Below, in pieces: positions 5,569 through 24,196 of a stretch of DNA of 64,000 nt (position 1 is its first letter; each line of letters begins with the position of its first letter). The position numbers and the translations under genes were made by a program. Below the pieces are notes generated by a model. That model searched no databases, was not told the DNA's origin, and worked only from the letters and a program-made list of their open reading frames with translations. The DNA is from an uncultured delta proteobacterium (GTDB taxonomy: Bacteria; Myxococcota; UBA727; VGSZ01): positions 32,001-96,000 of the forward strand of contig CAVZJB010000007.1 of NCBI GenBank assembly GCA_963775425.1, in the 5' to 3' direction.

Positions 5569-5665
5569 GGGGACGCTCCGTGGGCGGCACCCGGACGGGC
5601 CCGCCCCCCGAGTATCGCCGGTCTCGCGGGCGAAACGGCGGCTTCTCCCCCCCCTGACGGATGAC

Positions 5666-6700
5666 TCACCCGACGTAGCGTGCTTGAGGCCGGATCAGGC
5701 GCCCCACCTGGCGCTGTTCTCGCACATGGGCGCACCAGCCAACGATCCGAGAGCACGCGAACACCGACGAGAAGAGCGCTCGATCGATGCCCACCGCCTC
5801 CAGCAGCACCGCTGTGAAAAATTCCACATTCGCCTTCAGCGGCCGCTCGGGGTGCCTGCGCGCGAGCGCCGCTTCGGCCTCGCGCTCGACGGCGCGCGCG
5901 AGCGCCAGCCGCGCCGAGGGATCGCCGGCGAAGCGCTCGAGGGCCTGCTCGAGGACGAACGCGCGCGGATCGCGCACGCGATAGACGCGGTGGCCCATGC
6001 CCATGATGCGGCGGCCGGCGTCGAGCTCGCCCTCGATCCACGCGCGCGCGTTGTCGGGCGTGCCGACGGCGTCGAGCATATCGAGCACGGGCCCCGGCGC
6101 GCCGCCGTGCAGCGGCCCCTTGAGGGCGCCGACGCCGGCGACGAGCGCCGAGCGGAGGTCACTGCCCGTGGACGCCACCACGCGCGCCGCGAACGTCGAC
6201 GCGTTCATCCCGTGATCGACGACGGTGACGAGGTACGTGTCGAGCGCACGCACCGCAGCCGCCGACGGCTCGCGGCCGGTGAGCATCCGCAGCAGATCGT
6301 GCGCGTGGCTCGCCGACGGGTCCGGCGCCGCGCCGCCGGGGTGCGCCCACGCGCCGGCCGTGACGGCGACGAGCCCGACGGCGTCCCACGCGCCGTCGGG
6401 ATCGTCGCGGCCGGGCTGTGCGAGCGCGGCCCGCAAGGCCTCCATGGGCTGGCCGCGCCCCTCGCCGGCGGCGCCGAGGCGGGCGGCATCCCCGCGGGCG
6501 GCGCCCAGGCGGGCGCGGGCTTCGGCGGGGGTGACGTCGAGGAAGAGGGCGCAGACGTCCTCGAAGCTCGACGAAGGAGCGAGGTCCTCGACGGAGCGCC
6601 CGCGCAGAATCAAGCGACCGGCGGCGCCGTCGACGTCGGAGAGCGCGGTCTCGGCGACGACGACGCCTTCGAGACCGCTGCTGGTGGGGATGCCTGCCAT
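5666..6700 (-). CDS. Citrate synthase / methylcitrate synthase family protein
   Basis: GLEGVVVAETALS, VDHGMNASTF, GPLHGGA, MGMGHRVY, ANVEFF, GWCAH...LIRP. Confidence 0.9.
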   Translation of the reverse strand: MAGIPTSSGLEGVVVAETALSDVDGAAGRLILRGRSVEDLAPSSSFEDVCALFLDVTPAEARARLGAARGDAARLGAAGEGRGQPMEALRAALAQPGRDDPDGAWDAVGLVAVTAGAWAHPGGAAPDPSASHAHDLLRMLTGREPSAAAVRALDTYLVTVVDHGMNASTFAARVVASTGSDLRSALVAGVGALKGPLHGGAPGPVLDMLDAVGTPDNARAWIEGELDAGRRIMGMGHRVYRVRDPRAFVLEQALERFAGDPSARLALARAVEREAEAALARRHPERPLKANVEFFTAVLLEAVGIDRALFSSVFACSRIVGWCAHVREQRQVGRLIRPQARYVG

Positions 6701-6734
6701 GAAATCCTCCCGGGCGATTTTGAGAGAGCATCAC

Positions 6735-6780
6735 AAGCTTTACATGACTATGCAATGTTGATAGATAGTAAATGTTTAAG
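6735..6780. promoter_or_regulatory. AT-rich divergent control region between the two citrate-synthase-family genes
   Basis: Markedly AT-rich island. Imperfect inverted repeat TTACAT-gact-ATGCAA at 6740-6755; direct repeat AATGTT at 6754 and 6771. Confidence 0.5.
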
Positions 6781-6850
6781 GGAACGCGCGTAAGCTGATC
6801 TCGGGCCCTTGACGCCCGTGCTGTCGAACGCGCTCGAGGAGGGTCACGGG

Positions 6851-8245
6851 ATGGGCGACCAGCAGGGCAGCAAGGGCAGCAAGGCCAGTAGGAGCAGCAA
6901 GGCGTTGGCGGGGCTCGTCGCGGATGACCTCGCGGCGCGCGTGCTCCTCCAGCCCGGCGCGACGCTCGAGGCCGCCCTGCGCGCGGCAGGGGAGGAGGTG
7001 GAGCCCGCCCTCGCCGCGCTGTCGCCGCGGTGGAGCGCGCTCCTCACGGCGCGCGGCAAGCTCCGAGACCGTCCGCCCGAGCTGGTCCCGGTCCGGACCG
7101 GGGGCGAGGAGCGCGCGGCGTTCGGGGAGACGCTGAGCGCGGGCGAGGCCGCGGCGCTCCTCGGCATCAAGAAGCAGACGCTCTACGTGTACGTGAGTCG
7201 GGGGCTGCTGCGGTCGGCGCGCGTGCGCGGCGGCACCGCGCGCCGCTACCTGCGCGACGACGTGATGCGCTTGAAGGCGCGCAGCGACGTGCGCGCGGGG
7301 CGCCCGCTCTCCGCAGTCGGGGCGCTCCACTACGGCGCGCCGGTGATCGACTCGACGATCACGCTCATCGACACCGAGCGCGGCCCCGTGTACCGCGGAC
7401 ACGAGGCCACGGCGCTGGCGCGGCGAGGCGTGAGCGCCGAGCAGGTCGCGCGCCTGTTGTGGACCGGCGCGCTCCCCCCGGAGCCCGTGCGCTTTCGCTC
7501 ACTCCACCCGCGCGTGCCGAGGATGAAGCTCGTCGAAGACGCGCCCACGCCGCTGGCGCGCATCGAGGCGGCCCTGTTCTTCCTCGGGCGCTCCCTGCCC
7601 CGCTACGCGGTGCCGGACGAGACCAAGATCGCGGAGGACGTCCTGCAGACCGTGCGCGACGTCGTCGGCGTCGGGCACCCGGCGGCGGACGCGGTGCTCG
7701 CCGACCACGAGCTCAACCCGTCGACGTTCGCCGCGCGCGTGGCCGCGTCGACGGGGGCGAGCCTCATCGCGTGCCTGCAGGCGGCTGTGGCCACCTTCAG
7801 CGGGCCGCGCCATGGCGGCGCCTGCGATCGCATCGAGGCGCTGCTCGACGAGATCGGGCGCCCGGGGCGCGCGCGCGACGTGGTGAAGGGGCGGCTCGCG
7901 CGCGGCGACGACGTGCCGGGCTTCTTCGCCGGCATCTACACCACCACCGATCCCCGTTCGGCGGTGCTGCTCGAGCAGGCCGAGGCGAAACGTCCGGGAG
8001 CGCACGCGGCGCACGCGCTCATCGCGGCCATGAAGGAGATCGGCGGGCCGCAGGCGCCGGGGCCGTCGGTGGACCTGGCGCTCGTCGCGCTCGCGCGCGG
8101 CGCCGGTTGGCCCCGCGGCGTGGCCACGGCGGTGTTCGCGGCGGCGCGGATGAGCGGGTGGATCGCCCACGTGCTCGAGCAGCGCGGCAGCGCCGACGTG
8201 CTGCGCCCGCGCGCGCGCTTCACCGGGAGCCGTGACGGCGCTTGA
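6851..8245 (+). CDS. MerR/excisionase-type HTH fused to a citrate-synthase-like domain (probable regulator)
   Basis: HTH LSAGEAAALLGIKKQTLYVYVSRGLL; CS motifs ADHELNPSTF, GPRHGGA, GWIAH...LRPRA; GAGGA upstream of ATG 6851. Confidence 0.85.
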   Translation: MGDQQGSKGSKASRSSKALAGLVADDLAARVLLQPGATLEAALRAAGEEVEPALAALSPRWSALLTARGKLRDRPPELVPVRTGGEERAAFGETLSAGEAAALLGIKKQTLYVYVSRGLLRSARVRGGTARRYLRDDVMRLKARSDVRAGRPLSAVGALHYGAPVIDSTITLIDTERGPVYRGHEATALARRGVSAEQVARLLWTGALPPEPVRFRSLHPRVPRMKLVEDAPTPLARIEAALFFLGRSLPRYAVPDETKIAEDVLQTVRDVVGVGHPAADAVLADHELNPSTFAARVAASTGASLIACLQAAVATFSGPRHGGACDRIEALLDEIGRPGRARDVVKGRLARGDDVPGFFAGIYTTTDPRSAVLLEQAEAKRPGAHAAHALIAAMKEIGGPQAPGPSVDLALVALARGAGWPRGVATAVFAAARMSGWIAHVLEQRGSADVLRPRARFTGSRDGA

Positions 8246-15249: not shown

Positions 15250-16071
15250 CTACTGACACTCGTCGACGCCGTCGGTGACGTCGGCGACGCAGAAGACGTC
15301 GGGCGCCGTCACGTGCACGATGGCGAGGTCGGCCCAGGTCCCCTCATCGACGAGGGACGCGCTGATCGACTTGATCACGCTGCCGTGGGCGCGCACCTCC
15401 AGCGTCGCGGCGGTGTCCGTGGGCGTGATGGCGTGGTTCGAATAGTAGGCTGCGCCGACGAGGTAGTCGCCGACGACGGGGACGGAGACGTCGATGAGCT
15501 CGATCGCAGGCGCGGCGGCGCTGCCGCCGTCGACGTCGTCCTGCTCGAGGAGCGGATCGCCGGCGGTGGTGGCGGCGCCGTCCCAGTCGACGCTCGAGAA
15601 GCCCGGGACGCAGTCGCCGTAATAGCACTCGAGCGGCGCTTGACCGCCGCACGTGTCGGAGAACGGGCCGACGGCGACCGTGGTGGTGGCGGCGGTGCTC
15701 GGCGTGACGCAGAAGGGCGCGCCCTTGGTGGCGTGGATGTCGATGTCGGCGGCGGTGGTCCACGACAGGGTGAACGAGAGCACCGCGGGCTCGCCTTCGC
15801 CTTCGCCTTCGCCCTCGCCTTCGCCCTCGCCTTCGCCCTCGCCTTCCCCCTCTCCTTCGCCCTCGCCCTCGCCCTCGCCTTCGCCTTCACCGGGCTCGCC
15901 TTCGCCTTCGCCGGGCTCGCAGGTGCCGCCGGCGGCGCACAGCTCGCCGGAGTCACAGTCCGAGTCGACGACGCACTCGGCGCTCAAGCACGAAGAGGCG
16001 AACGCCGCGAACAGCGGCGCCAGCAGGAGCGCGGGGGAGGCGGGGACGAGCCGCAGGGAGATCAGCCGCAT
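15250..16071 (-). CDS. Lipoprotein: Cys-rich module, (GE)n linker, YfaP/DUF2135-like C-terminal domain
   Basis: Lipobox FASS-C; ECVVDSDCDSGELC; GEGEGE run; LSWTTAADIDIH...GDPLLEQDDVDG. Confidence 0.7.
   Translation of the reverse strand: MRLISLRLVPASPALLLAPLFAAFASSCLSAECVVDSDCDSGELCAAGGTCEPGEGEGEPGEGEGEGEGEGEGEGEGEGEGEGEGEGEGEGEGEPAVLSFTLSWTTAADIDIHATKGAPFCVTPSTAATTTVAVGPFSDTCGGQAPLECYYGDCVPGFSSVDWDGAATTAGDPLLEQDDVDGGSAAAPAIELIDVSVPVVGDYLVGAAYYSNHAITPTDTAATLEVRAHGSVIKSISASLVDEGTWADLAIVHVTAPDVFCVADVTDGVDECQ
15790..15912. repeat. 6-bp tandem repeat encoding (Gly-Glu)n
   Basis: (CTCGCC/TTCGCC)n on the + strand. Confidence 0.9.
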
Positions 16072-16955
16072 TGGTCGGTGGCGGAGCCGTCGGTGAGGTC
16101 CTCGATGCAGACGGCGCCTCCGCTCTTGTGGACGACGGCGAGGTCCACCCAGAAGATGGTCGTTCCGTCGAGGGGCACGGTGCGCGTGAACACCACGGAC
16201 TGGCTCGTGCCCTGGAGGATCTCGCCGGTGACGGTCGTGTTCGGCGACGTCCCGCTGTTGCTGTAGAAGCCCGCGCCGAGGAGGTAGTCGCCGTCGGCGA
16301 GCGCCTGCACCGAGACGACCTCCGGCCCGGGCCCCGTGAGGGCGTCGAGCTCGAGCACGGGGTCGCCCGCGCTGTTGCCCGCGACGGCGTCCCACGAGGG
16401 GTGCGTGCCCGAGCTCCTGCAGTCGGAGAAGTTGCAGTCGAGCGGGGCCGCGCTCGGGCACAGCGACGAGGTCGGCCCCACGGACGCCACGTCCACGCCG
16501 ACGAGGTCGATGCAGAATTGACCGTTGGCGTCCTTCTTCGTGAAGTGGATGTCGAGGTCCGCGCTGGTGGAGTCCCACTGGATGCGCGCCACGACCGTCT
16601 GCGGGCCCGGCGGCTCGCCCACCTCGCCTTCGCCCTCGCCCTCGCCTTCGCCTTCTCCTTCACCCTCGCCGGGCTCGCCTTCACCCTCGCCTTCGCCCTC
16701 GCCCTCGCCGGGCTCCCCCTCGCCCTCGCCCTCGCCGACGCCGCGCTCGCAGACGTTGTCGATGCAGGTCTCCCGGGAGTCGCAGTCCCCGTCGCCCTCG
16801 CACTCGACGCAGAGGCCGTCGCTCGAGCAGATCTTGGAGCCGTGGCAGTCGTCGTCGACGGCGCACTCGGCGCCGCCGAACAGCCCGCAGCCCGCCCCCA
16901 GCGCCGGAAGCGTGGCGACGAGGAGGCCGCGGGCGATCAGGGGATGGAGGCGCAT
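16062..16955 (-). CDS. Lipoprotein paralog: Cys-rich module, (GE)n linker, YfaP/DUF2135-like domain
   Basis: Lipobox LGAG-C; ECAVDDDC; GE run; IQWDSTSADLDIH...GPGPEVV. Same architecture as the downstream gene. Confidence 0.72.
   Translation of the reverse strand: MRLHPLIARGLLVATLPALGAGCGLFGGAECAVDDDCHGSKICSSDGLCVECEGDGDCDSRETCIDNVCERGVGEGEGEGEPGEGEGEGEGEGEPGEGEGEGEGEGEGEGEVGEPPGPQTVVARIQWDSTSADLDIHFTKKDANGQFCIDLVGVDVASVGPTSSLCPSAAPLDCNFSDCRSSGTHPSWDAVAGNSAGDPVLELDALTGPGPEVVSVQALADGDYLLGAGFYSNSGTSPNTTVTGEILQGTSQSVVFTRTVPLDGTTIFWVDLAVVHKSGGAVCIEDLTDGSATDQCG
16623..16735. repeat. 6-bp tandem repeat encoding (Gly-Glu)n with EP interruptions
   Basis: (CTCGCC/TTCGCC/TTCACC)n on the + strand. Confidence 0.9.
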
Positions 16956-17024: not shown

Positions 17025-17393
17025 TCACTGACAGGTGGTGTTGTCGTTGGCCTTGGGGTTTTGCCCCTGCGGGCACTGGTTGCCGTCGTTGGCGCACGAC
17101 GACGCGAGCAGGTCCGGACAGTCGATGTCCTGGAGCTCGCAGCCGCAGTCGCAGGCGCCGTCCCCGAAGAACTTGCCCTTGCACTGCCAGTCCCCGGGCG
17201 GCGGCAGGCACACCCGCGTGCCCGCGGGGTTGGTGTCGTCGGTGGCGACGCAGCCGAGGTCGGGGTCGTCGCATTCGCCGGAGTCCGTACACTCGAGGCC
17301 CACGTTGCCCCGTGAGGCCGCGAGCTGACAGCCGCCGAGCGCCGCGAGGGTGCCTGCCGTGAGCACGGCGAGGAGCAGGGTGAGCGTCTTCAT
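17025..17393 (-). CDS. Small Cys-rich lipoprotein (122 aa)
   Basis: MKTLTLLLAVLTAGTLAALGG-C; CDCGC and many other Cys; ATGA overlap with the upstream stop. Confidence 0.75.
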   Translation of the reverse strand: MKTLTLLLAVLTAGTLAALGGCQLAASRGNVGLECTDSGECDDPDLGCVATDDTNPAGTRVCLPPPGDWQCKGKFFGDGACDCGCELQDIDCPDLLASSCANDGNQCPQGQNPKANDNTTCQ

Positions 17394-18919
17394 CGCGCGT
17401 CCTCCCCGTCTTGTTCCGTGGGCTCCGCGGACGCGCCCCCGGCGATGCCCCAGATCAGGCCGGTGACCACGAGCGCCACACCGAGGCCGGCGACGCCGGC
17501 GCCGGTGCCGAACACCACGCGCCCCGTGGGGATGCCGGTGCCGTTGCCGCCGGTGCCGTCCCAGGCGTCCGACGCGTTGTTCACCTTGAGGCGAAGATCG
17601 CGCGCGTCGTCGGCGACCTTGGCGCGGTCGACGTCGCTGCTCTTCTTCACGTAGTCGCTCGCGAGCTTGCCGTCGTTGGCGAGCTCGGGGCAGTCCGTGG
17701 AGCCGAACGACCCGCGGCACAGCCTCACGTAGTCGAAGTACGGCAGCGCCCCCCACACGCCCGCGGCCGCGCCGCCCGCCGTGAGAGCGGCGCCGATGCC
17801 GAGCGTGATCCAGCCGCCGACGCCCCCGCCGCCCTTTTGCTGCGGCGCCTCCGCCGCGGGCTGGTGCTCGCGCTCGAGCGGCTCGATGCGGGTGTCCGTG
17901 TGCGCGGGCTCCGGCGTCGTCGCCGGTCCCGTCGTCGTCGTCGCCGGACCGGTCTCCGCCGGACCGGTCTCCGCCGGGCCCGTCGTCGCAGGGCCCGTCG
18001 TCTCTGGGCCCGTCGTCTCTGGGCCCGTCGTCTCCGGGCCCGGCGTCTCCGGGCCCGTCGTCTCCGGGCCCGTCGTCGCCGGGCCCGTCGTCTCCGGGCC
18101 CGGCGGCAGCGACTCCTTGCTGCACGCGTTGGCCATGGCGCTCGACGCGATCTTGCCGTCGCCGTGGGGGGACTCCACCAGCGTCCACTGCGGGCCGCGC
18201 GACTTGATGTTGATGGTGGCGCCGAACTCCAGCGTCTTCCACTGCCCCTTCGAGAACATCTTCACGGGCTTCTGCAGCGTGCACAGCTCCGACGTCCCCG
18301 TCTCCTCGGGGGGCGGCGGCGGTGGCGCCACCACCACAGGCGGCGGAGGCGGCGGCGGCGGAGGCGGAGGCGGAGGCGGCGGCGGCGGAGGACGCGTCAC
18401 CACCGGCGGCGGCGGCGTGACCACCGGCGGCGGCGGCGGGCGCGACGACGGGCGGCCACCGGTGCACGTGGCCGGGCAACTGTCGCCGCTTTGGACGTTT
18501 CCGTCGTCGCAGGTCTCGCCGCGCTCGATGAGGCCGTTGCCGCACTCGGCCCGCGGCACCCCGCACGCGCTCCCGCCCCCGCCGCGTTGGATGAGCTTCT
18601 CGAGGGCGGTGATCGACGTCTGCACCTCGCGCGCGCGCCGGTGGTGCGGCGCCCGCGAGAGCACGGTCTTGTACAGGCTGAGCGCGCGCACGCGGTCGTC
18701 CGCGAACTGCGCCGCGTCCGCGGCCTGCAGCGCCCACTCGGGGTTCGGATCGACCTTGTCGAGCTCGGTGTACAAAAAGACCGCCTCGCACCAGCGCTCC
18801 TTGAGGAGCGCGCGCTCGGCTGCCGCCTTGTGCGCCTTCAGGTTCTGCCCGAAGGCCGGCAAGGAGAGCGCGGCGGCGACGACGACGATCAGAGCGGGGA
18901 GGGACCGGCGAAAGAACAT
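17390..18919 (-). CDS. Exported TPR-like + myxobacterial Cys-rich repeat + Pro-rich + (GPETT)n protein with C-terminal membrane segments
   Basis: Signal MFFRRSLPALIVVVAAALSLPAFG; helical TPR-like region; CGNGLIERGETCDDGN...CPATC; poly-Pro; two Gly/Ala-rich C-terminal hydrophobic segments. Confidence 0.75.
   Translation of the reverse strand: MFFRRSLPALIVVVAAALSLPAFGQNLKAHKAAAERALLKERWCEAVFLYTELDKVDPNPEWALQAADAAQFADDRVRALSLYKTVLSRAPHHRRAREVQTSITALEKLIQRGGGGSACGVPRAECGNGLIERGETCDDGNVQSGDSCPATCTGGRPSSRPPPPPVVTPPPPVVTRPPPPPPPPPPPPPPPPPPVVVAPPPPPPEETGTSELCTLQKPVKMFSKGQWKTLEFGATINIKSRGPQWTLVESPHGDGKIASSAMANACSKESLPPGPETTGPATTGPETTGPETPGPETTGPETTGPETTGPATTGPAETGPAETGPATTTTGPATTPEPAHTDTRIEPLEREHQPAAEAPQQKGGGGVGGWITLGIGAALTAGGAAAGVWGALPYFDYVRLCRGSFGSTDCPELANDGKLASDYVKKSSDVDRAKVADDARDLRLKVNNASDAWDGTGGNGTGIPTGRVVFGTGAGVAGLGVALVVTGLIWGIAGGASAEPTEQDGEDAR
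17926..18101. repeat. 15-bp tandem repeat encoding GP(E/A)(T/E)(T/P)
   Basis: About 11 copies of GGGCCCGTCGTCTCC-like units. Confidence 0.9.
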
Positions 18920-18992
18920 GCGGGGGCCATTATCACCCGAAGCCTTGCCGCGATGCGACAAATGCACGTCGGCCGGGATCGCGTGAGAGGTG

Positions 18993-20441
18993 TCACGGCT
19001 GCGGCCACGTCCTCGCCATCACGTCGATGCTGTGCTCGTGCGCCCACGCGGGCTCGTCGTCGAGCAGGCGGTTGGCCTCGTCATGCGCCTCGTCGAAGCG
19101 GCCGAGCTCGGACCACGCCCGCATGGTGAGGAAGCGGGAGAGCTTGACGAGGCCGTCGCCGTCGTCGGCGGCCTTGTAGTCCTTGGCGAACTGCTTGCAG
19201 ACGTCGATGGCGTCGGCCCAGCGCTCGGCGGAGACGAGCACGGAGCAGTGGCGGAAGGCATACGTGCGCTGGAGCACCGCCGACAGGGGGTGCTTGGCGT
19301 TCCTCTCATCGAGCTCCAAGGACGCCATCTCGCGCTCGCCGTCCTTGAGCGCCTGCTCGTGGCGATGCGCCTGGTCGATCATCGCCCGCATCTGCAGGTC
19401 GATGGACTGCGCGTACATCCCGGCGGGGAACTGCGCGAGGTAGCGCTCGCCCGCCTGGAGCGCGAGGTCGCCGCGCTTGAGGATGTTGAGCGCCTGGAAG
19501 ATGTAGAACGCGGCGAGCTCCCGCGCGTTGATCACGGGCATCCCGGGCGCCGCCGGCGGCGGCACCGGCAGCTTCATCTCGTACACGCGCGAAGCGACGT
19601 CGAGGAGCGCCTGGTAGCGGAACTGCGACATCAGGCCGTTCATGGCGCTCATGGCCTGCATGTTGCGCTCCTGCGCCGGCCTCGTGACGTCGTCGACGCC
19701 GGCGAGCATGGTCTTGGTGCGCTCGTCGAGGATGGCCTTGCCCTTGCGCGCGTACCGGTCGAGGCGGCTCTCGAGGGCGCGCAGGTCGTAGAGCGCGTAG
19801 TGGAAGTCGGGGTCGAGGTCGAGGGCGCGCCTGAGGTGCTCCATCTTCTCGGTGTCCGACGCGGGCTGCAGGCTCAAGGCGTAGGCCTTGTACGCGTCCA
19901 GCGTGCGCTGCTTGTTCCTGGGCTTCCGCTTGTGGACCGGCGGGAGCTTGAGGAGGCGTCCGACGACGCTGTCCTGGAGCGTGAAGATCTCCGTGAGCGG
20001 CCCGGTGACCTTGGCGGTGGTGTCGACGACGCCGGTCTCGACGACGACGAGCCGGGCGGTGATGCGCACCTGATTGCCGGCCTTCTGGAAGCCCCCGACG
20101 ACCACGTGCGTGGCGCCCACGAGCTTGCCTGCGGCGGCGGCGGTGCTCTCGTCGGTGCCGGCCTTCTTCTGGAGCGCGATCTCGGCCAGCGCCTCATCGA
20201 TCTGGTCGCGCTCGACGACGGAGCGGTGCGCGGTCTTCAGGTCGCTGATCATGGTCTCGGCGATGCCGAGACGCAGCCAGTCGAGCGAAGGCTCCGCGTT
20301 CAGGTTCTTGAACGGCAGCACCGCCAACCGCGCCGCCCCCGCCTCCGCCAGCTCCTCGGGGTGCCCTCCCTCGAGATCCGGCGCGCGCTCTCCCGGCGCG
20401 GTCGTCATCGCGAGCAGGCCCACGACGGCAAAGGCGATCAC
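18993..20441 (-). CDS. Exported FlgO/CsgG/TolB-N-like domain + TPR protein
   Basis: GTG overlaps the upstream TGA; hydrophobic N-terminus; LAVLPFKNL...LDWLRLGIAETM...VVERDQI...GKLVGA...RITARLVVVETG...IFTLQD; TPR motifs such as LRRALDLDPDF. Confidence 0.8.
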   Translation of the reverse strand: MIAFAVVGLLAMTTAPGERAPDLEGGHPEELAEAGAARLAVLPFKNLNAEPSLDWLRLGIAETMISDLKTAHRSVVERDQIDEALAEIALQKKAGTDESTAAAAGKLVGATHVVVGGFQKAGNQVRITARLVVVETGVVDTTAKVTGPLTEIFTLQDSVVGRLLKLPPVHKRKPRNKQRTLDAYKAYALSLQPASDTEKMEHLRRALDLDPDFHYALYDLRALESRLDRYARKGKAILDERTKTMLAGVDDVTRPAQERNMQAMSAMNGLMSQFRYQALLDVASRVYEMKLPVPPPAAPGMPVINARELAAFYIFQALNILKRGDLALQAGERYLAQFPAGMYAQSIDLQMRAMIDQAHRHEQALKDGEREMASLELDERNAKHPLSAVLQRTYAFRHCSVLVSAERWADAIDVCKQFAKDYKAADDGDGLVKLSRFLTMRAWSELGRFDEAHDEANRLLDDEPAWAHEHSIDVMARTWPQP

Positions 20442-22882
20442 GGCCGGACCCGCGCCTTCACGTCGAGCATGGTCTTGTTCACCGCCGCCGCGAGCTTGTC
20501 CTGCAGGGCGAAGACGTCGTCCTTCTTGCCGTCGGCCTTGGCCGCCGCGAGCACCTCGCCGCTGTCGACGTCGACGAAGCGCGCGGTGAAGCGCATGTCG
20601 CCGCCGGCGACCTGGTAGCTGCCGAGGATGGCGATCTCGGCGCCGGCAATCTTGCCGAGCTGCGCCCGCGTGGCCGGGTCGACGTACTTGGTCTGCGCGA
20701 ACTCGAGCTCGCCGATGTCGACGTCGATCTGCCCGCGCTCGATGAGCTTCACGCCGTCCGCCTGCGCGAGCTCCGTGACCACCACCTCGGCGAGCCCTTG
20801 CTTGAGGTAATCGAGCGACGCGTCGGCGCCGCTGGCCTTGAAGGGGAACACGCTCACGCGCACCGGCCCCTCGTGCCGCGCCTCGCCGCCCGGCTTCGGG
20901 GGTGGAGCGGGGGCCGGCTCCCCGCGGCTCGCGAGCATTTGTGACGGCGCAGCGGCGACGCCCGCGTCGCCGGCGGCGTGTGCTTCGTCCCAGGGGTGCA
21001 AGAGCAACGCGGCGACGACGACGACGCCCGCGAGCAGACCGCCCGCCGCCCCGAGGGCGAGCGCGCTCCGGCCGCCGCCCGCCGCGCGCACCGGCGGGGG
21101 CGGCGGGGGCGCCCGCGGCATCGACACCGTCGGCACGGTCTGGGTTGGCTCGGGCGCGGGACGAGCCGGGAATTCCCCCGAGCGCGTGCGCCCCGACGAC
21201 GGCAGCGTCGCGTCGTCGGGCGGCAGGGTCGCGCGCGGGTCGCCGTAGAGCACGTACCCGGCGAACGACAGCGACGAGGCGTGCACCTGCGCCAGCGCCC
21301 GCCGCGCCCGCCGCGCGCACTCGCCGAAGGGCACGCCCGACAGCGCCGCCTCGTAGAAGCGCAGCGCGAACGACAGCGCGTCGGCGTCGGGGACGCCCCA
21401 CATCGGCGCGAGCGTATGGCGCACGCCCGAGAGCAGGAGCGCCTGCGCCAGCGACGACGCCGCCGGCGCGTCGCCGACCTGGGGATCGCCCGGGCCGAGC
21501 GCGTGCCAGCGCTCCGACGTCGACGCGTGGCAGCCGTTGGCGAACACCAGGAGCGGCGCGCTCTCGCGCATCGCCGCCGTCACGTCCCGCGCCGTCACCA
21601 CGCCGTCGGCGACGACGAAGCCGCCCTCGCCCGCGGCGCCGCCGCGCACCACGTGCCCCGCGAAGTGCAGCACCCGCGCGCGCGCCGCCAGCGCCAGGAA
21701 CTGCGCGCGATCGATGGCGCCGCTGTGGTGCACCACGCGCCCCGGCGCCGCCGACGAAAACAGCTTCTCGACGACGCGCCCCTCCTCCTCGGCGTGCGGC
21801 AGGTCCCCCGACGGGTTCGCCACGACCACGATCTCGCGCGCCGACGTCGACGGCGGCGGCACCGCGGCGTCCGCCCGCGCCGTCACCATCCGCCCCACGG
21901 AGAACCGGCAGCCGAGGAAGTCGGTGCCGTCGTGCAACAGCTCCCACGGCACGTGCACCAGCGTGTCCTCGACGTGCAGCCGCACCGTGTGCCGCCCCGT
22001 TTCGCGGATGCGCTTCTGCACGCGCTCGGGCAGCGCGCGGTCGAACAGCGCGCGGCCGCGCTCGACGAGCGCCTCGACGTACGCGCCCTGCCCGCCGTCG
22101 TGCGCGAGCACCGCGAACGGCTCCGGCAGCGCGTCGATCTCCTCGAGCGACAGCGGCACGTCCGCGTACGCCTTCACCGTGCCGCGCTCGGCCTCGCCGT
22201 CCATGGCGGCGACGCGCAGCCCGGTGGGGCCGCGATCGATCTCGATGATGAACAGCTCCTGCGCCGCCGGCGACAGCGCCGCCGCGTTCGCCTTGTCCTC
22301 GGGGCGCCAGGCGACCGCCACCACCGGCACCGGCGCGCTCTTGCCCTTGGCCGCGAGCGGGCGGCGCGGCGCGACCACCGGCCGCCCCGCGGCAGGCAGC
22401 GCGTCGAGGAGCGCCTGCGACACGAGCACCTCGTCGCCGTCGGCGGCGCTCGCGACCCGGGCGGCCGTGTTGACGGTGTCGCCGAAGACGTCGTCGCCGT
22501 CCTTGAGCACCCGGCCGAAGTGAACGCCGACGCGGATGCGGATGCGCTCCACCGCCGCCGTCCCCGTCTCCTGCGCGAGCTTGTCCTGCAGCGCCACCGC
22601 GCAGGCGACGCCGTCGGCGGCCTTCTCGAAGACCGCCATGATGGAGTCGCCGATGGTCTTCACCACCCGGCCGGCGTGCTGCTTCACCACCGGGAACAGC
22701 AGGTCGTTGTGGCGATGGACGAGCGCGAGGCCCTCGATGTCGCCGCGCTGCTCGAAGTACGCCGTGGAGCCGACGATGTCCGTGAACAGCACCGCCATCT
22801 CCACGGCGTGCCGCTCGAGGAGCGCGCGATCGATCTCGCGCCGTTTCTCGATGAGCTCCTGCAGGTCGTCTTCGAGCGCCAC
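20438..22882 (-). CDS. Class III adenylate cyclase - CHAT protease - TM - FlgO/CsgG-like receptor
   Basis: Cyclase LFTDIVGST, VKTIGDSIMA, RVGVHFG, DVFGDTVNTAARV; CHAT VPWELL, NPSGDLPHAEEEG, LHFAGH, FANGC, PMWGVPD, YVLYGDP; TM LALGAAGGLLAGVVVVAALLL; C-terminal VSVFPF...IERGQI...FTARFVDVDSG. Confidence 0.88.
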   Translation of the reverse strand: MALEDDLQELIEKRREIDRALLERHAVEMAVLFTDIVGSTAYFEQRGDIEGLALVHRHNDLLFPVVKQHAGRVVKTIGDSIMAVFEKAADGVACAVALQDKLAQETGTAAVERIRIRVGVHFGRVLKDGDDVFGDTVNTAARVASAADGDEVLVSQALLDALPAAGRPVVAPRRPLAAKGKSAPVPVVAVAWRPEDKANAAALSPAAQELFIIEIDRGPTGLRVAAMDGEAERGTVKAYADVPLSLEEIDALPEPFAVLAHDGGQGAYVEALVERGRALFDRALPERVQKRIRETGRHTVRLHVEDTLVHVPWELLHDGTDFLGCRFSVGRMVTARADAAVPPPSTSAREIVVVANPSGDLPHAEEEGRVVEKLFSSAAPGRVVHHSGAIDRAQFLALAARARVLHFAGHVVRGGAAGEGGFVVADGVVTARDVTAAMRESAPLLVFANGCHASTSERWHALGPGDPQVGDAPAASSLAQALLLSGVRHTLAPMWGVPDADALSFALRFYEAALSGVPFGECARRARRALAQVHASSLSFAGYVLYGDPRATLPPDDATLPSSGRTRSGEFPARPAPEPTQTVPTVSMPRAPPPPPPVRAAGGGRSALALGAAGGLLAGVVVVAALLLHPWDEAHAAGDAGVAAAPSQMLASRGEPAPAPPPKPGGEARHEGPVRVSVFPFKASGADASLDYLKQGLAEVVVTELAQADGVKLIERGQIDVDIGELEFAQTKYVDPATRAQLGKIAGAEIAILGSYQVAGGDMRFTARFVDVDSGEVLAAAKADGKKDDVFALQDKLAAAVNKTMLDVKARVRP

Positions 22883-22967: not shown

Positions 22968-23759
22968 CTACGGCTTGCGCGCGCTCAGGAAGATGCGCTT
23001 GAGCGTGTAGAAGTAGGGGCGATCGTCGTCGAGCCGCGCCAGCAGCCGCTCGCTGTAGCGGGCGACGAAGTCGGCGTAGAGCGCCTCGCTCAAGCGCGCC
23101 TTGACGTCGGTGAGCATGGCGCCCTTGACCCACTCGATGACGCCGTCGCGCGAGGGCATCTCGTGCACGTAGACGCGCAGGAAGACGTCGACGTCCAAGA
23201 GCCCGAGCTTCGACAGGAGCACCGCGTAACGCTCGGGCGCGAGTATGTGTTGCCGCGGCCCCTCCCCGCCGAGCGGCGCCGCAAACGGCGCCTCGCGGGC
23301 GAGCTCGGCGGCGACGACGTGGTCGGGGTGGTCCTGGTTGGCCGGCATCTGCACCGCGAGCTGCCCGCCCGGCGCCAGCAGCCCCACGAGCCGCGCGAAC
23401 AGCGCCTCGTGATCGGGCACCCATTGCAGCGCGGCGTTCGACAAGACCACGTCGAAGTCCACGACGCCCTCCGCGCCGTCGGGGAAGCGCGCGATGTCCG
23501 CGTGCGCGAACGCGAGGCCGTCGACGACGAGCGCGCCGGCGCGAGCGAGCATGGCCTCGCTGTTGTCCAGGCCGAGGGTGGAGCGCGCCTTCAATTCGTC
23601 ATGGGCGAAGCGCGTGTTTTCGCCGGTGCCGCAGCCAAGGTCGACGACGCGCATGCCGGGCTTGGCCGCGACCGTGGCGAGCAGATCGAAGAAGGGCTTC
23701 TTGCGCTGCTCGCGGAAGCGCTCGTACTGCGCGGGGTCCCAGGCGTCGCCGGTGCTCAT
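22968..23759 (-). CDS. tam: Trans-aconitate 2-methyltransferase-like SAM methyltransferase
   Basis: WDPAQYERF...PFFDLL, VVDLGCGTG, SNAALQWVPDH, LAVQMPAN. Confidence 0.85.
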   Translation of the reverse strand: MSTGDAWDPAQYERFREQRKKPFFDLLATVAAKPGMRVVDLGCGTGENTRFAHDELKARSTLGLDNSEAMLARAGALVVDGLAFAHADIARFPDGAEGVVDFDVVLSNAALQWVPDHEALFARLVGLLAPGGQLAVQMPANQDHPDHVVAAELAREAPFAAPLGGEGPRQHILAPERYAVLLSKLGLLDVDVFLRVYVHEMPSRDGVIEWVKGAMLTDVKARLSEALYADFVARYSERLLARLDDDRPYFYTLKRIFLSARKP

Positions 23760-24196
23760 GAGATGATCGTCTGGAGGGCCGTGTGCACGTCCTTGTTCTC
23801 GAGGCACACGGCGCGGATGGCGGGGAGCATCTGCTCGATGCTGGCGATGTTGGCGTAGACGCAGTTGGCGACGAGGCCTTCCGTGGGCTCCTCGCCCTCG
23901 ATGTCCAGGCTGGTCTTGAAGCGGATGAGCCCGGTGTCGACGTCGAGCTCGAGGTTGCCGAGCACGTGGCCGTAGTTGAGGCGCGCCATCAATTCCAACG
24001 CGGGCGCCATCCGCTCTCGTGGGACCTCGACGGGGCACAGCGCGTAGAACGCGAGCACCCCCGTGTCCTCGTCGACGCGGACCAGCCCTTGAAAGCGTCC
24101 GCTCTCTCCGCTGAAGGCCACGTGCAGGTGCTCGTGGTCTTCGCTCTCGATGTCGATGTGCTCACTCGCGAGGAAGGACAGGACGACGTCGCGCAT
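23756..24196 (-). CDS. YbjN-domain protein
   Basis: ELMARLNYGHVLGNLELDVDTGLIRFKTSLD matches the YbjN / sensory transduction regulator pattern. Confidence 0.8.
   Translation of the reverse strand: MRDVVLSFLASEHIDIESEDHEHLHVAFSGESGRFQGLVRVDEDTGVLAFYALCPVEVPRERMAPALELMARLNYGHVLGNLELDVDTGLIRFKTSLDIEGEEPTEGLVANCVYANIASIEQMLPAIRAVCLENKDVHTALQTIIS

What the first reader, a model, noticed from the sequence alone, without database searches (positions are those of the whole stretch)
18993..22882. Cyclase-caspase(CHAT) transmembrane receptor coupled to an exported partner carrying the same FlgO/CsgG-like domain
Seen: one 814-aa ORF carries, in order, a coiled coil, a class III cyclase, a CHAT domain, a Pro/Thr linker, one TM helix and a FlgO/CsgG/TolB-N-like domain. 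The cyclase keeps both metal Asp (FTDIVGST, IGDS), the Lys and Asp of adenine specificity (VKTIG, DVFG) and NxxxR. The CHAT domain keeps His (LHFAGH) and Cys (FANGC). The stop overlaps (GTGA) the start of an exported protein that begins with a homologous FlgO-like domain followed by TPRs. Established: class III cyclases work as dimers; CHAT proteases are caspase relatives, often controlled by TPRs or cyclic nucleotides (Csx29, SAVED-CHAT); class III cyclases also act in Pycsar defence. Inference: the periplasmic TPR partner clusters the receptor through like-with-like domains, so one outside signal switches on both cAMP synthesis and proteolysis. That could serve envelope or contact sensing, development or programmed death. 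I know of no characterised protein with this architecture.
Basis: partly seen in the sequence, partly recalled or inferred. Interest (0 to 1): 0.85.

Follow-up and report, generated by a model that had tools for sequence, protein, structure and literature searches.

The report
Membrane receptor fusing cyclase and caspase-like protease
A conserved two-gene unit of myxobacteria-like bacteria encodes a membrane receptor that carries both a cAMP-making enzyme and a caspase-like protease inside the cell, plus a secreted helper protein; nobody appears to have studied such a receptor.

Summary
Window 20438-22882 (-) encodes an 814-aa protein. In order it has an N-terminal helix, a class III cyclase with all six catalytic residues, a separase/CHAT-type protease with its His-Cys dyad, a Pro-rich disordered linker, one hydrophobic helix, and a TolB-N/LpoB/CsgG-N-like domain. 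Its TGA overlaps (GTGA) the start of a 482-aa exported protein. That protein begins with a paralogous TolB-N-like domain and continues as a TPR-like helical solenoid with two invariant Cys.

The fusion is not a misassembly. More than 90 homologues from independent assemblies keep the architecture and the catalytic residues. The partner lies directly downstream in 15 of 19 assessable loci, usually with the same ATGA/GTGA overlap. No other gene is conserved around the pair, and the neighbourhood is housekeeping, not a defence island.

Relatives show a modular family: the CHAT-TM-periplasmic sensor is the core and the cyclase is an N-terminal add-on. Longer variants carry TPRs and the LpoB-like domain in one chain.

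Best reading: a dual-output receptor controlled by oligomerisation, with the partner as co-receptor. Partner binding has only weak modelling support. Like-with-like clustering, ligand, substrate and biological role are inferred. No publication of this architecture was found. It is a new variant of known kinds.

The parts
20438..22882 (-). Gene A: 814-aa single-pass receptor (P0001). GTG start; its TGA stop overlaps the start of gene B.
   Evidence: GC3 is 0.97. The N-terminus agrees with the homologue consensus.
22808..22879 (-). N-terminal helix, residues 2-25, directly preceding the cyclase domain. A possible dimerising helix (inference).
   Evidence: AlphaFold2 model, H2-25, pLDDT 90-95.
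22298..22807 (-). Class III nucleotidyl cyclase domain, residues about 26-195. Residues: D35 and D79 (metal), K75 and D131 (adenine-type), N138 and R142 (transition state).
   Evidence: Pfam PF00211, E 8.5e-20. Gap-free alignment to the M. avium adenylyl cyclase Ma1120, E 3e-29. Foldseek 5d0e_A, 39% identity, TMt 0.90, rmsd 1.7. VIA Rv1900c Z 23.4, rmsd 1.8, 163 aligned. Residue conservation; codons checked.
21209..22264 (-). Separase/CHAT-type caspase-fold protease domain, residues about 207-558. Dyad H410 (21653-21655) and C451 (21530-21532).
   Evidence: Pfam PF12770, E 1.7e-27. VIA: separase 5fc2_B Z 25.2, rmsd 3.7, 301 aligned; Csx29 7y9x_B Z 21.0; DdvA 8rot_B Z 20.4. Profile alignment places H410 on DdvA H862 and C451 on C907. 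H410 is kept in 92/93 and C451 in 92/93.
21071..21208 (-). Cytoplasmic Pro-rich disordered linker, residues 559-604.
   Evidence: 28% Pro; pLDDT below 50.
20987..21070 (-). Single predicted transmembrane segment, residues 605-632.
   Evidence: Kyte-Doolittle 2.47 over 19 residues, and the only segment at or above 1.6 in the protein. A segment in the same position occurs in 69 of 75 homologues. The other 6 have weaker maxima of 1.23-1.53 there. AlphaFold2 did not model it as a confident helix.
20876..20986 (-). Periplasmic Pro/Ala-rich linker, residues 633-669.
   Evidence: 19% Pro; pLDDT below 50.
20447..20875 (-). Periplasmic TolB-N/LpoB/CsgG-N/FlgO-like alpha/beta domain, residues 670-812.
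   Evidence: Pfam CsgG 26.5 bits (cutoff 20.8; profile positions 7-97 of 210) and FlgO 18.2 bits (below cutoff). pLDDT mostly 87-97, with one low loop at 718-734. Homologous to the N-domain of gene B, E 2.8e-23.
20438..20441 (-). GTGA: the start codon of B overlaps the stop codon of A (translational coupling).
   Evidence: The same ATGA/GTGA overlap in B's frame is seen in 8 other loci: L010, L011, L012, L014, L015, L016, L023, L029.
18993..20441 (-). Gene B: 482-aa exported partner (P0002).
   Evidence: AlphaFold2 pLDDT 92.6, pTM 0.82.
20337..20441 (-). B N-terminus, residues 1-35: a short hydrophobic signal-peptide-like stretch plus a spacer.
   Evidence: The sequence VIAFAVVGLLAM.... Homologues show Sec-type N-termini ending in Ala-x-Ala-like sites just before the conserved (A/L)V(M/L)PF strand (by eye; no predictor was run).
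19953..20330 (-). B N-terminal TolB-N/LpoB-like domain, residues 38-163.
   Evidence: Pfam FlgO 24.9 bits (cutoff 22.6). VIA: TolB 1c5k_A Z 13.6, rmsd 2.2, 117 aligned; also PelC, LpoB, CsgG and a flagellar LPHT-ring protein. Foldseek LpoB 4q6l, E 4.5e-4.
19011..19913 (-). B C-terminal all-helical TPR-like solenoid, residues 177-477, with invariant C399 and C415.
   Evidence: Secondary structure. VIA: YbgF TPR 2xev_A Z 12.7; BamD Z 11.5-11.9 (below the tool's caution level of about 13 for helical repeats). Consensus-TPR profile hit at positions 413-453, E 1.1e-5. Invariant Cys; codons checked.

Best explanation
Genes A and B form a self-contained, translationally coupled two-gene operon. It encodes a dual-output transmembrane signalling receptor and its secreted co-receptor.

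Shown:
- Protein A has a cytoplasmic class III adenylate-type cyclase and a cytoplasmic separase/CHAT-type cysteine protease. Both keep conserved catalytic residues.
- A then has a flexible Pro-rich linker, one hydrophobic helix, a second flexible linker and a TolB-N/LpoB-like domain.
- Protein B has a signal-peptide-like N-terminus, a paralogous TolB-N-like domain and a TPR-like solenoid with two invariant Cys.
- The pair is conserved together. No other gene is.

Inferred:
- A sits N-in/C-out in the inner membrane.
- B binds A's periplasmic domain, and together they make the sensing unit. In longer relatives the same unit is a single chain of TPRs plus an LpoB-like domain.
- The linkers on both sides of the membrane are long, disordered and variable in length. 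The signal therefore cannot be a rigid conformational push.
- Instead, an envelope or external cue changes the oligomeric state or clustering of A-B.
- Bringing two A chains together completes the two-chain active sites of the cyclase. This is the established requirement of class III cyclases.
- It also brings the protease domains together, as in proximity-activated caspases.
- The result would be a cAMP signal plus cleavage of a still unknown substrate, possibly A's own linker.

Relatives that lack the cyclase show that the CHAT-TM-sensor is the core and the cyclase an added second output.
For: Architecture and catalytic residues.

Topology:
- One hydrophobic segment in A, present in 69/75 homologues.
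- B homologues have Sec-type N-termini and invariant C399/C415.
- A's C-terminal domain is homologous to B's exported N-domain.

Partnership:
- B lies directly downstream in 15 of 19 assessable loci. This is 14 of 18 without the unpublished genome G195.
- B is adjacent in 10 of 13 loci with long flanks.
- An ATGA/GTGA start-stop overlap is seen in the window and in 8 of the 9 other loci where the script could evaluate it.
- The B family is tight: 85 hits at E <= 1.4e-51, then a drop to 1.5e-9.
- 13 B hits share their contig length with A hits. Same-contig origin is inferred from this.
- Only the A and B families recur across 13 loci plus the window.
- The two TolB-N-like domains form two clean clades, 40 against 40, SH-aLRT 100 on a quick tree. 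The pair is therefore old and has been maintained.

Binding model: ipSAE 0.46 (runs 0.47, 0.46, 0.44) against a best control of 0.20. The tool rates this 'weak support'. The mark was reached by 58 of 80 solved complexes and 2 of 110 mismatched pairs. At 0.60 or under, only 7 of those 80 and both mismatches reached it. The runs agree in at least 95% of contacts, and the partner's pLDDT is at least 81.

Cis version of the sensor: the long variants are cyclase-CHAT-TM-TPR-LpoB/CsgG-like.

Flexible coupling: residues 565-657 have pLDDT below 50. Linker plus TM length is 88-207 residues across 75 homologues.

Cyclase as add-on: cyclase-less relatives start at the first strand of the CHAT module.
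Against: - No activity, binding, localisation or expression data exist. No sequencing run was listed.
- The complex prediction is only weak and gives no interface.
- AlphaFold2 did not model the hydrophobic segment as a confident helix. Six of 75 homologues have only a weak hydrophobic segment.
- In 4 of 19 loci B is not adjacent. In two of those genomes (G161, G196) only distant B-like proteins (29-32% identity) were found. A can therefore exist without a close B.
- Separase and the TPR-CHAT of craspase act as monomers according to PMC11506125 (passages). Proximity activation of the CHAT domain is thus an analogy to caspases, not a property of the family.
- K75 and D131 predict ATP use, but the specificity of class III cyclases cannot be read with certainty from sequence.
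Confidence: 0.5

Rival explanations
1. Release by regulated proteolysis. The CHAT protease is the primary and only switch. On a periplasmic cue it cuts A's own flexible linker, in cis or in trans. This frees a soluble cyclase (or cyclase-CHAT) from the membrane, or destroys it. The two activities would then act in sequence, not in parallel.
For: - A long disordered Pro-rich linker lies between CHAT and the TM.
- The closest solved CHAT protein by sequence is DdvA (E 5.7e-6). Its authors propose signal-induced CHAT autoproteolysis of the linker next to its TM helix (PMC11506125, passages).
- Cyclase-less relatives show that CHAT-TM-sensor is the ancestral core.
Against: - In DdvA the CHAT domain and the linker are periplasmic, and autoproteolysis is itself only proposed.
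- No conserved cleavage motif was looked for or seen in the variable linker. Its alignment is poor: 1271 columns for 814 residues.
- A class III cyclase still needs dimerisation after release.
Confidence: 0.2
2. Static anchoring. The periplasmic domain and B only position or stabilise A at a particular envelope structure, as LpoB, TolB-N, PelC and FlgO-type domains contact envelope machines. B would act as a stabilising chaperone, like ToxS for ToxR (recalled). The enzymes would be regulated from inside the cell.
For: - The fold family consists of envelope-machine contact or ring domains: TolB, LpoB, PelC, CsgG and a flagellar LPHT-ring protein.
- Flexible linkers suit a tether.
- A B-like paralogue sits beside a Ser/Thr kinase elsewhere in the genome. 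This suggests a general accessory role.
Against: - No cytoplasmic regulatory domain (cNMP-binding, GAF, PAS, receiver) is detected in A.
- Related receptors swap the periplasmic module (TPR plus LpoB-like, or DUF4384) while keeping the cytoplasmic enzymes. This is typical of sensor exchange.
Confidence: 0.15
3. Anti-phage abortive-infection system. The cyclase makes a nucleotide alarm (Pycsar-like) and the CHAT protease kills or arrests the infected cell.
For: - Weak PADLOC PycC hits to the cyclase domain (best E 7.5e-8).
- CHAT proteases act in CRISPR-linked defence. Csx29 and SAVED-CHAT are structural neighbours (Z 21.0 and 14.6).
- Distribution is patchy: a match covering more than the cyclase domain in 20 of 400 other genomes sampled in the phylum.
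Against: - No PADLOC hit for B or gene C.
- The neighbours are housekeeping genes: Fpg, aldehyde dehydrogenase, nitrilase-type hydrolase, CoA transferase, methyltransferase, YbjN, AhpC, NAD kinase, TetR.
- No effector with a nucleotide-binding domain is conserved nearby.
- The specificity residues are the adenine type, K and D.
- A periplasmic sensor with a secreted partner is not how known Pycsar or CBASS systems detect phage (established knowledge).
Confidence: 0.1

Closest known systems
DdvA, the transmembrane anti-sigma factor of Myxococcus xanthus with a periplasmic TPR-CHAT domain (PDB 8rot; PMC11506125, abstract and passages read)
   Same: - Single-pass membrane protein of Myxococcota with a CHAT domain and a long flexible linker next to the TM.
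- It is the closest solved CHAT by sequence (E 5.7e-6) and its dyad aligns with A's.
- Structural match Z 20.4, rmsd 3.4, 275 aligned.
- It works as a dimer according to the paper.
   Different: - The topology is opposite: in DdvA the CHAT domain is periplasmic and the output is a cytoplasmic zinc anti-sigma domain.
- DdvA has no cyclase, no TolB-N-like domain and no secreted partner.
- According to the paper the DdvA active site is incomplete.
Minimal class III adenylyl cyclases Ma1120 (M. avium) and Rv1900c/LipJ (M. tuberculosis)
   Same: - Gap-free alignment of residues 29-192 with Ma1120, E 3e-29.
- 39% identity, TMt 0.90.
- Metal Asp pair, Lys/Asp specificity pair and Arg are present.
   Different: - A has the canonical Asn (N138), where the aligned Ma1120 residue is Ala.
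- A's cyclase sits at the extreme N-terminus, so all other domains lie C-terminal of it.
- It is fused to a protease and a membrane anchor.
Separase and the CRISPR-linked CHAT proteases (Csx29 of Cas7-11 craspase, SAVED-CHAT)
   Same: - Same protease fold. Z values: separase 5fc2_B 25.2, yeast separase 22.7, Csx29 21.0, SAVED-CHAT 14.6.
- His-Cys dyad.
   Different: - No SAVED domain, no Cas association and no N-terminal TPR array in A.
- Regulation by a periplasmic module instead of RNA, cyclic oligoadenylate or securin.
Receptor-type bacterial proteins with a cytoplasmic output, one TM and a periplasmic TolB-like domain plus TPRs (cyclases, Ser/Thr kinases, CadC/ToxR-type regulators). Partly recalled; seen here as weak hits.
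   Same: - Same general plan.
- B's nearest hits outside its own family are kinase or Trans_reg_C proteins with TPRs (E 1.5e-9 to 2.6e-4).
- The CadC periplasmic domain appears as a weak structural and language-model lead.
- NCBIfam TIGR04510 (cyclase of a peptide-modification system) hits only the cyclase part: 43.4 bits against a cutoff of 400.
   Different: - Here a CHAT protease is inserted between the cyclase and the TM.
- The TPR-like part is supplied by a separate secreted protein carrying its own copy of the TolB-N-like domain.
ToxR-ToxS and VtrA-VtrC co-receptor pairs (recalled, not tested here)
   Same: A single-pass receptor whose downstream, co-transcribed gene encodes a periplasmic partner that completes or stabilises the sensing domain.
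   Different: - Unrelated folds and outputs (DNA binding).
- ToxS and VtrC are membrane-anchored, not secreted.
- No sequence relationship was found or sought.
Pycsar (class III cyclase plus nucleotide-activated effector)
   Same: Class III cyclase fold. Weak PycC matches (best E 7.5e-8). cUMP and cCMP synthases are structural neighbours (Z 16.4-19.1).
   Different: - Adenine-type specificity residues.
- No cNMP-binding effector gene.
- Not in a defence island.

Membership tests
Class III nucleotidyl cyclase (Pfam PF00211) | Profile match above the curated threshold | tested here: met
   71.5 bits against a cutoff of 21.9, residues 28-163.
Class III nucleotidyl cyclase (Pfam PF00211) | Two metal-binding Asp, transition-state Asn and Arg | tested here: met
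   D35, D79, N138 and R142 are present. Conservation is 89/93 (4 gaps), 93/93, 93/93 and 93/93. The Asp pair and the Arg align with those of Ma1120. The roles of the residues are recalled from the literature on the family.
Class III nucleotidyl cyclase (Pfam PF00211) | Adenine-specifying Lys and Asp (adenylate rather than guanylate cyclase) | tested here: met
   K75 (90/93) and D131 (92/93). They align with the K and D of the adenylyl cyclase Ma1120. The product itself was not measured.
Class III nucleotidyl cyclase (Pfam PF00211) | Active as a dimer, with active sites at the interface | not tested
   No homodimer model was made; the single complex job went to the A-B pair.
CHAT / clan CD caspase-fold protease (Pfam PF12770) | Profile match above the curated threshold | tested here: met
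   97.1 bits against a cutoff of 24, residues 274-548, covering profile positions 2-289 of 289.
CHAT / clan CD caspase-fold protease (Pfam PF12770) | Catalytic His-Cys dyad in the positions of a solved CHAT protease | tested here: met
   H410 aligns with DdvA H862 and C451 with DdvA C907. Dyad numbering is from PMC11506125. H410 is kept in 92/93 and C451 in 92/93.
CHAT / clan CD caspase-fold protease (Pfam PF12770) | Separase-like fold | tested here: met
   5fc2_B Z 25.2, rmsd 3.7, 301 aligned over model residues 207-558.
CHAT / clan CD caspase-fold protease (Pfam PF12770) | Proteolytic activity and cleavage specificity | not testable with these tools
   Needs biochemistry.
TolB-N / LpoB-C / CsgG-N / FlgO-like alpha/beta domain | Sequence profile match | tested here: met
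   A: CsgG 26.5 bits (cutoff 20.8), FlgO 18.2 bits (below 22.6). B: FlgO 24.9 bits (above 22.6), CsgG and LpoB below their cutoffs.
TolB-N / LpoB-C / CsgG-N / FlgO-like alpha/beta domain | Fold match to solved members | tested here: met
   B residues 37-170: TolB 1c5k_A Z 13.6, rmsd 2.2, 117 aligned; PelC Z 11.5; LpoB Z 11.3; CsgG 6lqh Z 10.4. A's domain was not searched on its own.
CsgG curli secretion channel (true family member) | Full-length match including the channel-forming part; outer-membrane lipoprotein | tested here: not met
   Only profile positions 7-97 of 210 match in A and 42-97 in B. In A the domain follows a TM helix, and B homologues have no lipobox Cys in most N-termini (by eye). 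Only a domain is shared, not the family.
TPR repeat protein (partner's C-terminal part) | TPR profile matches at threshold | tested here: not met
   Best hit is TPR_2 at 15.5 bits against a cutoff of 27. The family profile hits consensus TPR proteins only at positions 413-453, E 1.1e-5.
TPR repeat protein (partner's C-terminal part) | TPR-like helical-hairpin solenoid fold | tested here: inconclusive
   YbgF TPR Z 12.7, BamD 11.5-11.9 and others around 10. All are below the tool's caution level of about 13 for helical repeats. Foldseek TPR hits have E about 1e-3 with rmsd near 19 A.
Pycsar defence system | PycC-type cyclase plus adjacent effector with a cyclic-nucleotide-binding domain | tested here: not met
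   Only weak PycC hits (best E 7.5e-8). There is no hit for B or gene C and no conserved third gene.
SAVED-CHAT / Csx29 craspase-type CHAT effectors | SAVED sensor domain or association with Cas7-11 / type III CRISPR | tested here: not met
   No SAVED or Cas family hit in A. The neighbours are housekeeping genes.
DdvA-type anti-sigma factor | N-terminal cytoplasmic zinc anti-sigma domain, periplasmic TPR-CHAT, adjacent ECF sigma gene | tested here: not met
   A's N-terminus is a cyclase, and the CHAT domain lies on the N-terminal (cytoplasmic) side of the TM. No sigma factor was found among the neighbours.
NCBIfam TIGR04510, peptide-modification-system cyclase | Full-length equivalence (cutoff 400 bits) | tested here: not met
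   43.4 bits, residues 30-126 only.

The most novel reading that the evidence does not exclude
A bacterial counterpart of a death-receptor-like switch. A secreted co-receptor and a single-pass receptor sense an envelope or cell-contact cue. They cluster and, by induced proximity alone, turn on a caspase-fold protease and an adenylate cyclase in the same polypeptide. One external event would then produce both an irreversible (proteolytic) and a diffusible (cAMP) signal. In social, developmentally complex Myxococcota this could govern developmental lysis, kin or prey contact responses, or envelope-damage responses.
Probability: 0.3. Interest if true: 0.85.

Novelty: new variant of a known kind. 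Interest (0 to 1): 0.62.

Why it matters
- Class III cyclases and CHAT/caspase-fold proteases are each well known. A receptor that joins both behind one transmembrane helix, with a dedicated secreted partner, has no characterised example that I could find.
- It offers a tractable system for asking how a bacterial caspase-fold protease is switched on from outside the cell. It would also show whether proximity-induced activation, the principle of animal initiator caspases and receptor cyclases, operates in bacteria.
- The modular relatives amount to a natural domain-swap series for experiments. They come with or without the cyclase, with cis or trans TPR, or with DUF4384 as sensor.
- cAMP signalling and regulated proteolysis in Myxococcota bear on development and predation. 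The family is therefore a plausible but unproven entry point there.

Tried and rejected
- The search for related loci in genome contigs with the single protein returned only one weak CHAT-only locus (L009, 28% identity). It was not used further; the genome search replaced it.
- MAFFT --auto on 93 sequences timed out. It was repeated with faster settings.
- Single-sequence phmmer of the CHAT region against PDB sequences found nothing at E <= 1. A 12-sequence profile was needed.
- The careful tree did not finish in 288 s. The quick tree is reported.
- The look-up of sequencing runs: no run and no RNA holder was listed. Read laying was therefore not used. Expression and co-transcription remain untested.
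- Misassembly of the fusion was rejected. The same architecture occurs in more than 90 proteins from independent assemblies and in 20 other genomes.
- A Rosetta-stone fusion of A with B was rejected. The long variants carry TPRs before, not after, the LpoB-like domain, and they have one such domain, not two. They are a cis version of a similar sensor, not A+B joined.
- A defence-island context was rejected.
- The CadC link of B's helical part was not confirmed. The evidence is an Atlas score of 0.91, Foldseek 3ly9/3lya at E about 2e-3 with rmsd 20-21 A, and no sequence-profile hit. It is kept only as a lead.
- Literature: 7 searches found no description of a cyclase-CHAT fusion or of this partner family. 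The first search was swamped by 'tolbutamide'-type matches.
- Supplementary files (for example table S7 of PMC11506125, which lists DdvA-like proteins) could not be seen.
- The search of protein representatives and the second Atlas call were not used.

Full report
**1. What is there**

The window is about 72% G+C. The 814-aa ORF at 20438-22882 (-) is the high-GC3 frame (0.97). Its GTG start gives an N-terminus that matches the homologue consensus.

Pfam finds:
- Guanylate_cyc, residues 28-163, E 8.5e-20.
- CHAT, residues 274-548, E 1.7e-27, covering the full profile.
- At the C-terminus, CsgG (residues 671-755, 26.5 bits, cutoff 20.8, N-terminal half of the profile only) and FlgO (18.2 bits, below the cutoff).

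The next gene starts with a GTG that overlaps the TGA (gtga at 20441-20438) and runs to 18993 (482 aa). It hits FlgO above threshold (residues 38-146) and CsgG, LpoB and TPR_2 only weakly.

**2. The two enzymes look active**

The cyclase domain aligns without gaps to the crystallised adenylyl cyclase Ma1120 (E 3e-29; 39% identity, TMt 0.90, rmsd 1.7). It also aligns structurally to Rv1900c (Z 23.4).

I took the 93 sequences of at least 730 aa among the query and the hits P0004-P0108; shorter rows were dropped. In these the six canonical residues are nearly invariant:
- D35: 89/93, with 4 gaps
- K75: 90/93
- D79: 93/93
- D131: 92/93
- N138: 93/93
- R142: 93/93

The K/D pair is the adenine-type pair. 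The roles of the residues are recalled from the literature on the family.

The protease part is larger than the Pfam match. Model residues 207-558 superpose on separase (5fc2_B Z 25.2, rmsd 3.7, 301 aligned), Csx29 (Z 21.0) and DdvA (Z 20.4). The region between cyclase and 'CHAT' is therefore the N-terminal half of the separase-like fold, not an unknown domain.

A 12-sequence profile of this part hits DdvA (8rot_B, E 5.7e-6). It places A's H410 on DdvA H862 and C451 on C907. The DdvA paper names these as the catalytic dyad (PMC11506125, passages). H410 is kept in 92/93 and C451 in 92/93.

**3. Topology**

A has one hydrophobic segment, residues 605-632 (Kyte-Doolittle 2.47). Basic residues precede it and acidic ones follow it. 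A segment in the same place is present in 69 of 75 aligned homologues. The other six have weaker maxima of 1.23-1.53.

Both flanking linkers are Pro-rich (28% and 19% Pro) and are modelled as disordered (565-657, pLDDT below 50). AlphaFold2 did not model the hydrophobic segment as a confident helix either. This is a caveat.

B has no internal hydrophobic segment. Its homologues start with short basic, hydrophobic, Ala-x-Ala-like N-termini that end just before the conserved (A/L)V(M/L)PF strand (judged by eye). Two Cys, C399 and C415, are invariant in 75 sequences. This fits an oxidising compartment.

A's C-terminal domain is homologous to B's N-domain (36% identity, E 2.8e-23). Together with the ATP need of the cyclase, this gives an N-in/C-out receptor and a periplasmic partner. 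That topology is an inference, because no dedicated predictor was available.

**4. The partner**

B's model is confident (pLDDT 92.6, pTM 0.82). Residues 37-170 have the TolB N-terminal / LpoB / PelC / CsgG-N / GNA1162 fold (TolB 1c5k_A Z 13.6, rmsd 2.2, 117 aligned; LpoB E 4.5e-4).

The rest is an all-helical hairpin array that resembles TPR proteins. The matches are YbgF Z 12.7 and BamD Z 11.5-11.9, below the tool's caution level for helical repeats. One consensus-TPR motif is seen by profile (E 1.1e-5). 'TPR-like' is fair; 'TPRs' overstates the sequence evidence.

Weak leads to the periplasmic sensor of CadC were not confirmed. They were Foldseek 3ly9/3lya and an Atlas score of 0.91.

**5. 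Conservation of the pair**

A's architecture is common in metagenome-assembled genomes. These are labelled Deltaproteobacteria, Myxococcota or Myxococcales where a name is given.

In 400 other genomes sampled from the phylum, 20 had a match extending beyond the cyclase domain (E <= 2.2e-76). Another 14 matched only the cyclase domain (E 1e-41 to 1e-47). The tool warned that these tallies are a floor.

Of the 20 loci L010-L029, 19 had usable downstream sequence; L027 ends at a contig edge. A long B-like match lies directly after A in 15 of the 19. The four misses are L013, L017, L020 and L022. One of the 15 (L028) comes from the unpublished genome G195; without it the count is 14 of 18.

With long flanks, A and B are adjacent on the same strand in 10 of 13 loci. 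For the genomes behind the four misses:
- G131 has a B orthologue on another contig of a 1670-contig assembly (44% identity).
- G128 has a B homologue (38% identity) about 6 kb away on the other strand.
- G161 and G196 have only distant B-like proteins (29-32% identity).

A start codon in B's frame overlaps A's TGA as ATGA or GTGA in the window and in L010, L011, L012, L014, L015, L016, L023 and L029. In L018 the script found a candidate start only 103 nt downstream. The other loci could not be evaluated by the script.

The B family is tight: 85 hits at E <= 1.4e-51, then a gap to 1.5e-9.

Clustering all high-GC3 ORFs of 13 loci plus the window found no family other than A and B in more than 3 loci. 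The other two large clusters are antisense shadows of A and B.

A tree of 40 A C-terminal domains and 40 B N-terminal domains splits them cleanly (SH-aLRT 100). This is a quick tree; the careful search did not finish, and only the first 40 rows of each 75-row alignment were used. The duplication therefore predates the family's spread, and both copies have been kept.

**6. Does B bind A?**

One complex job was run with A 660-814 and B 34-482, using my own alignments.
- It gave ipSAE 0.46 (runs 0.47, 0.46, 0.44) against a best control of 0.20. The verdict was 'weak support'.
- The mark was reached by 58 of 80 solved complexes and by 2 of 110 mismatched pairs.
- At 0.60 or under, only 7 of those 80 and both mismatches reached it.
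- The runs agree in at least 95% of contacts, and the partner's pLDDT is at least 81.
- No interface was released.

**7. The wider family**

Searching with the CHAT part alone and inspecting hits shows a modular set:
- (i) The window's type, about 740-890 aa.
- (ii) Proteins of about 1050-1200 aa with cyclase-CHAT-TM (16 of 18 inspected have a hydrophobic segment at 553-711), then TPRs, then an LpoB/CsgG-like domain. One is labelled Methylomirabilota.
- (iii) Cyclase-less CHAT-TM-TPR-CsgG-like proteins.
- (iv) CHAT-TM-DUF4384 proteins, and one cyclase-CHAT-TM-DUF4384.
- (v) Soluble CHAT-only proteins of about 465 aa.

The cyclase-less forms begin at the first strand of the separase-like module. 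The CHAT-TM-sensor is therefore the core, and the cyclase is a second output added at the N-terminus. The periplasmic part is exchanged like a sensor. Type (ii) carries TPRs and the LpoB-like domain in one chain, which supports the idea that A's domain plus B form one sensing unit.

**8. Context**

The neighbours are housekeeping or envelope genes:
- Fpg-like glycosylase
- aldehyde dehydrogenase
- CN hydrolase
- CoA transferase
- a methyltransferase
- YbjN
- AhpC
- NAD kinase
- TetR
- several Cys-rich lipoproteins

PADLOC gives only weak PycC hits for the cyclase fold and nothing for B or gene C. A defence-island reading is not supported.

**9. Mechanism**

Shown: two conserved catalytic centres on the N-terminal side of a single hydrophobic helix; a conserved extracytoplasmic domain; and a dedicated, translationally coupled exported partner.

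Inferred: the segment between invariant P549 and G672 varies from 88 to 207 residues (median 118) and is disordered. A rigid piston or rotation signal is therefore unlikely. Control by oligomeric state (clustering) or by proteolytic release fits better.

Class III cyclases need two chains to form their active sites (established knowledge). Caspases can be activated by induced proximity (established for animal initiator caspases). For CHAT proteases this is only an analogy. The DdvA paper notes that separase and craspase TPR-CHAT act as monomers, while DdvA itself is a dimer.

I rate the dual-output, oligomerisation-controlled receptor at 0.5. The rivals are self-cleavage and release at 0.2, static anchoring at 0.15 and phage defence at 0.1.

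**10. Novelty**

Databases annotate these proteins only by domain (for example 'class 3 adenylate cyclase/TolB-like protein/CHAT domain-containing protein'). Seven full-text searches found no description of the fusion or of the partner family. The only characterised transmembrane CHAT protein found is DdvA, which has the opposite topology. Supplementary files could not be read.

The finding is a new variant built from known kinds of parts. It is real and conserved, but its function is entirely untested.

Noticed in passing
window 17390-18967 (-): Gene C starts 26 nt after B's stop on the same strand and encodes 525 aa. It has a signal-peptide-like N-terminus, a helical region, a Cys-rich DUF4215-like repeat (E 4e-4, below cutoff), long Pro-rich tracts and a C-terminal hydrophobic segment. 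It is conserved only in the two closest relatives (L039, L040), so it is not part of the core pair. It may still be co-transcribed here.
   Followed up: partly
L052 (G000:C8:95000-108000), 6228-7583 (+) and 3655-5586 (+): The same genome has a full-length paralogue of the partner (38% identity; Pfam FlgO and TolB_N). It lies about 640 nt downstream of a 643-aa Ser/Thr protein kinase gene on the same strand, with a high-GC3 258-aa ORF on the opposite strand overlapping the kinase gene's end and the gap, and it is flanked by Gly-Glu-repeat lipoproteins. Partner-like proteins may serve other single-pass receptors too.
   Followed up: partly
window 16062-16955 (-), 15250-16050 (-), 17025-17399 (-): A run of small Cys-rich lipoprotein-like genes with (Gly-Glu)n repeats lies downstream of the operon. 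One has a weak TrAA12-like hit. Similar genes flank the paralogous locus in L052. Their function is unknown.
   Followed up: no
proteins P0090-P0101, P0219-P0261: Related receptors of about 1050-1200 aa carry cyclase-CHAT-TM-TPR-LpoB/CsgG-like domains, one with an added FlgT_C-like end. Cyclase-less CHAT-TM-TPR-CsgG forms and CHAT-TM-DUF4384 forms also exist. One long form is labelled Methylomirabilota, so the wider family is not confined to Myxococcota.
   Followed up: partly
window 22968-23747 (-) and 23756-24196 (-): A class I SAM methyltransferase and a YbjN-family gene lie upstream of gene A on the same strand. The methyltransferase is also near A in the two closest relatives, on the same strand in L040 and L039, but not further out.
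   Followed up: no
G000 contigs C13, C16, C5, C18, C11; family f8 genomes: The genome has at least nine further class III cyclase paralogues in open frames of 231-1552 aa. In another family of the phylum, frames of about 880-1320 aa carry a cyclase domain 42-52% identical to A's but without the CHAT part.
   Followed up: no
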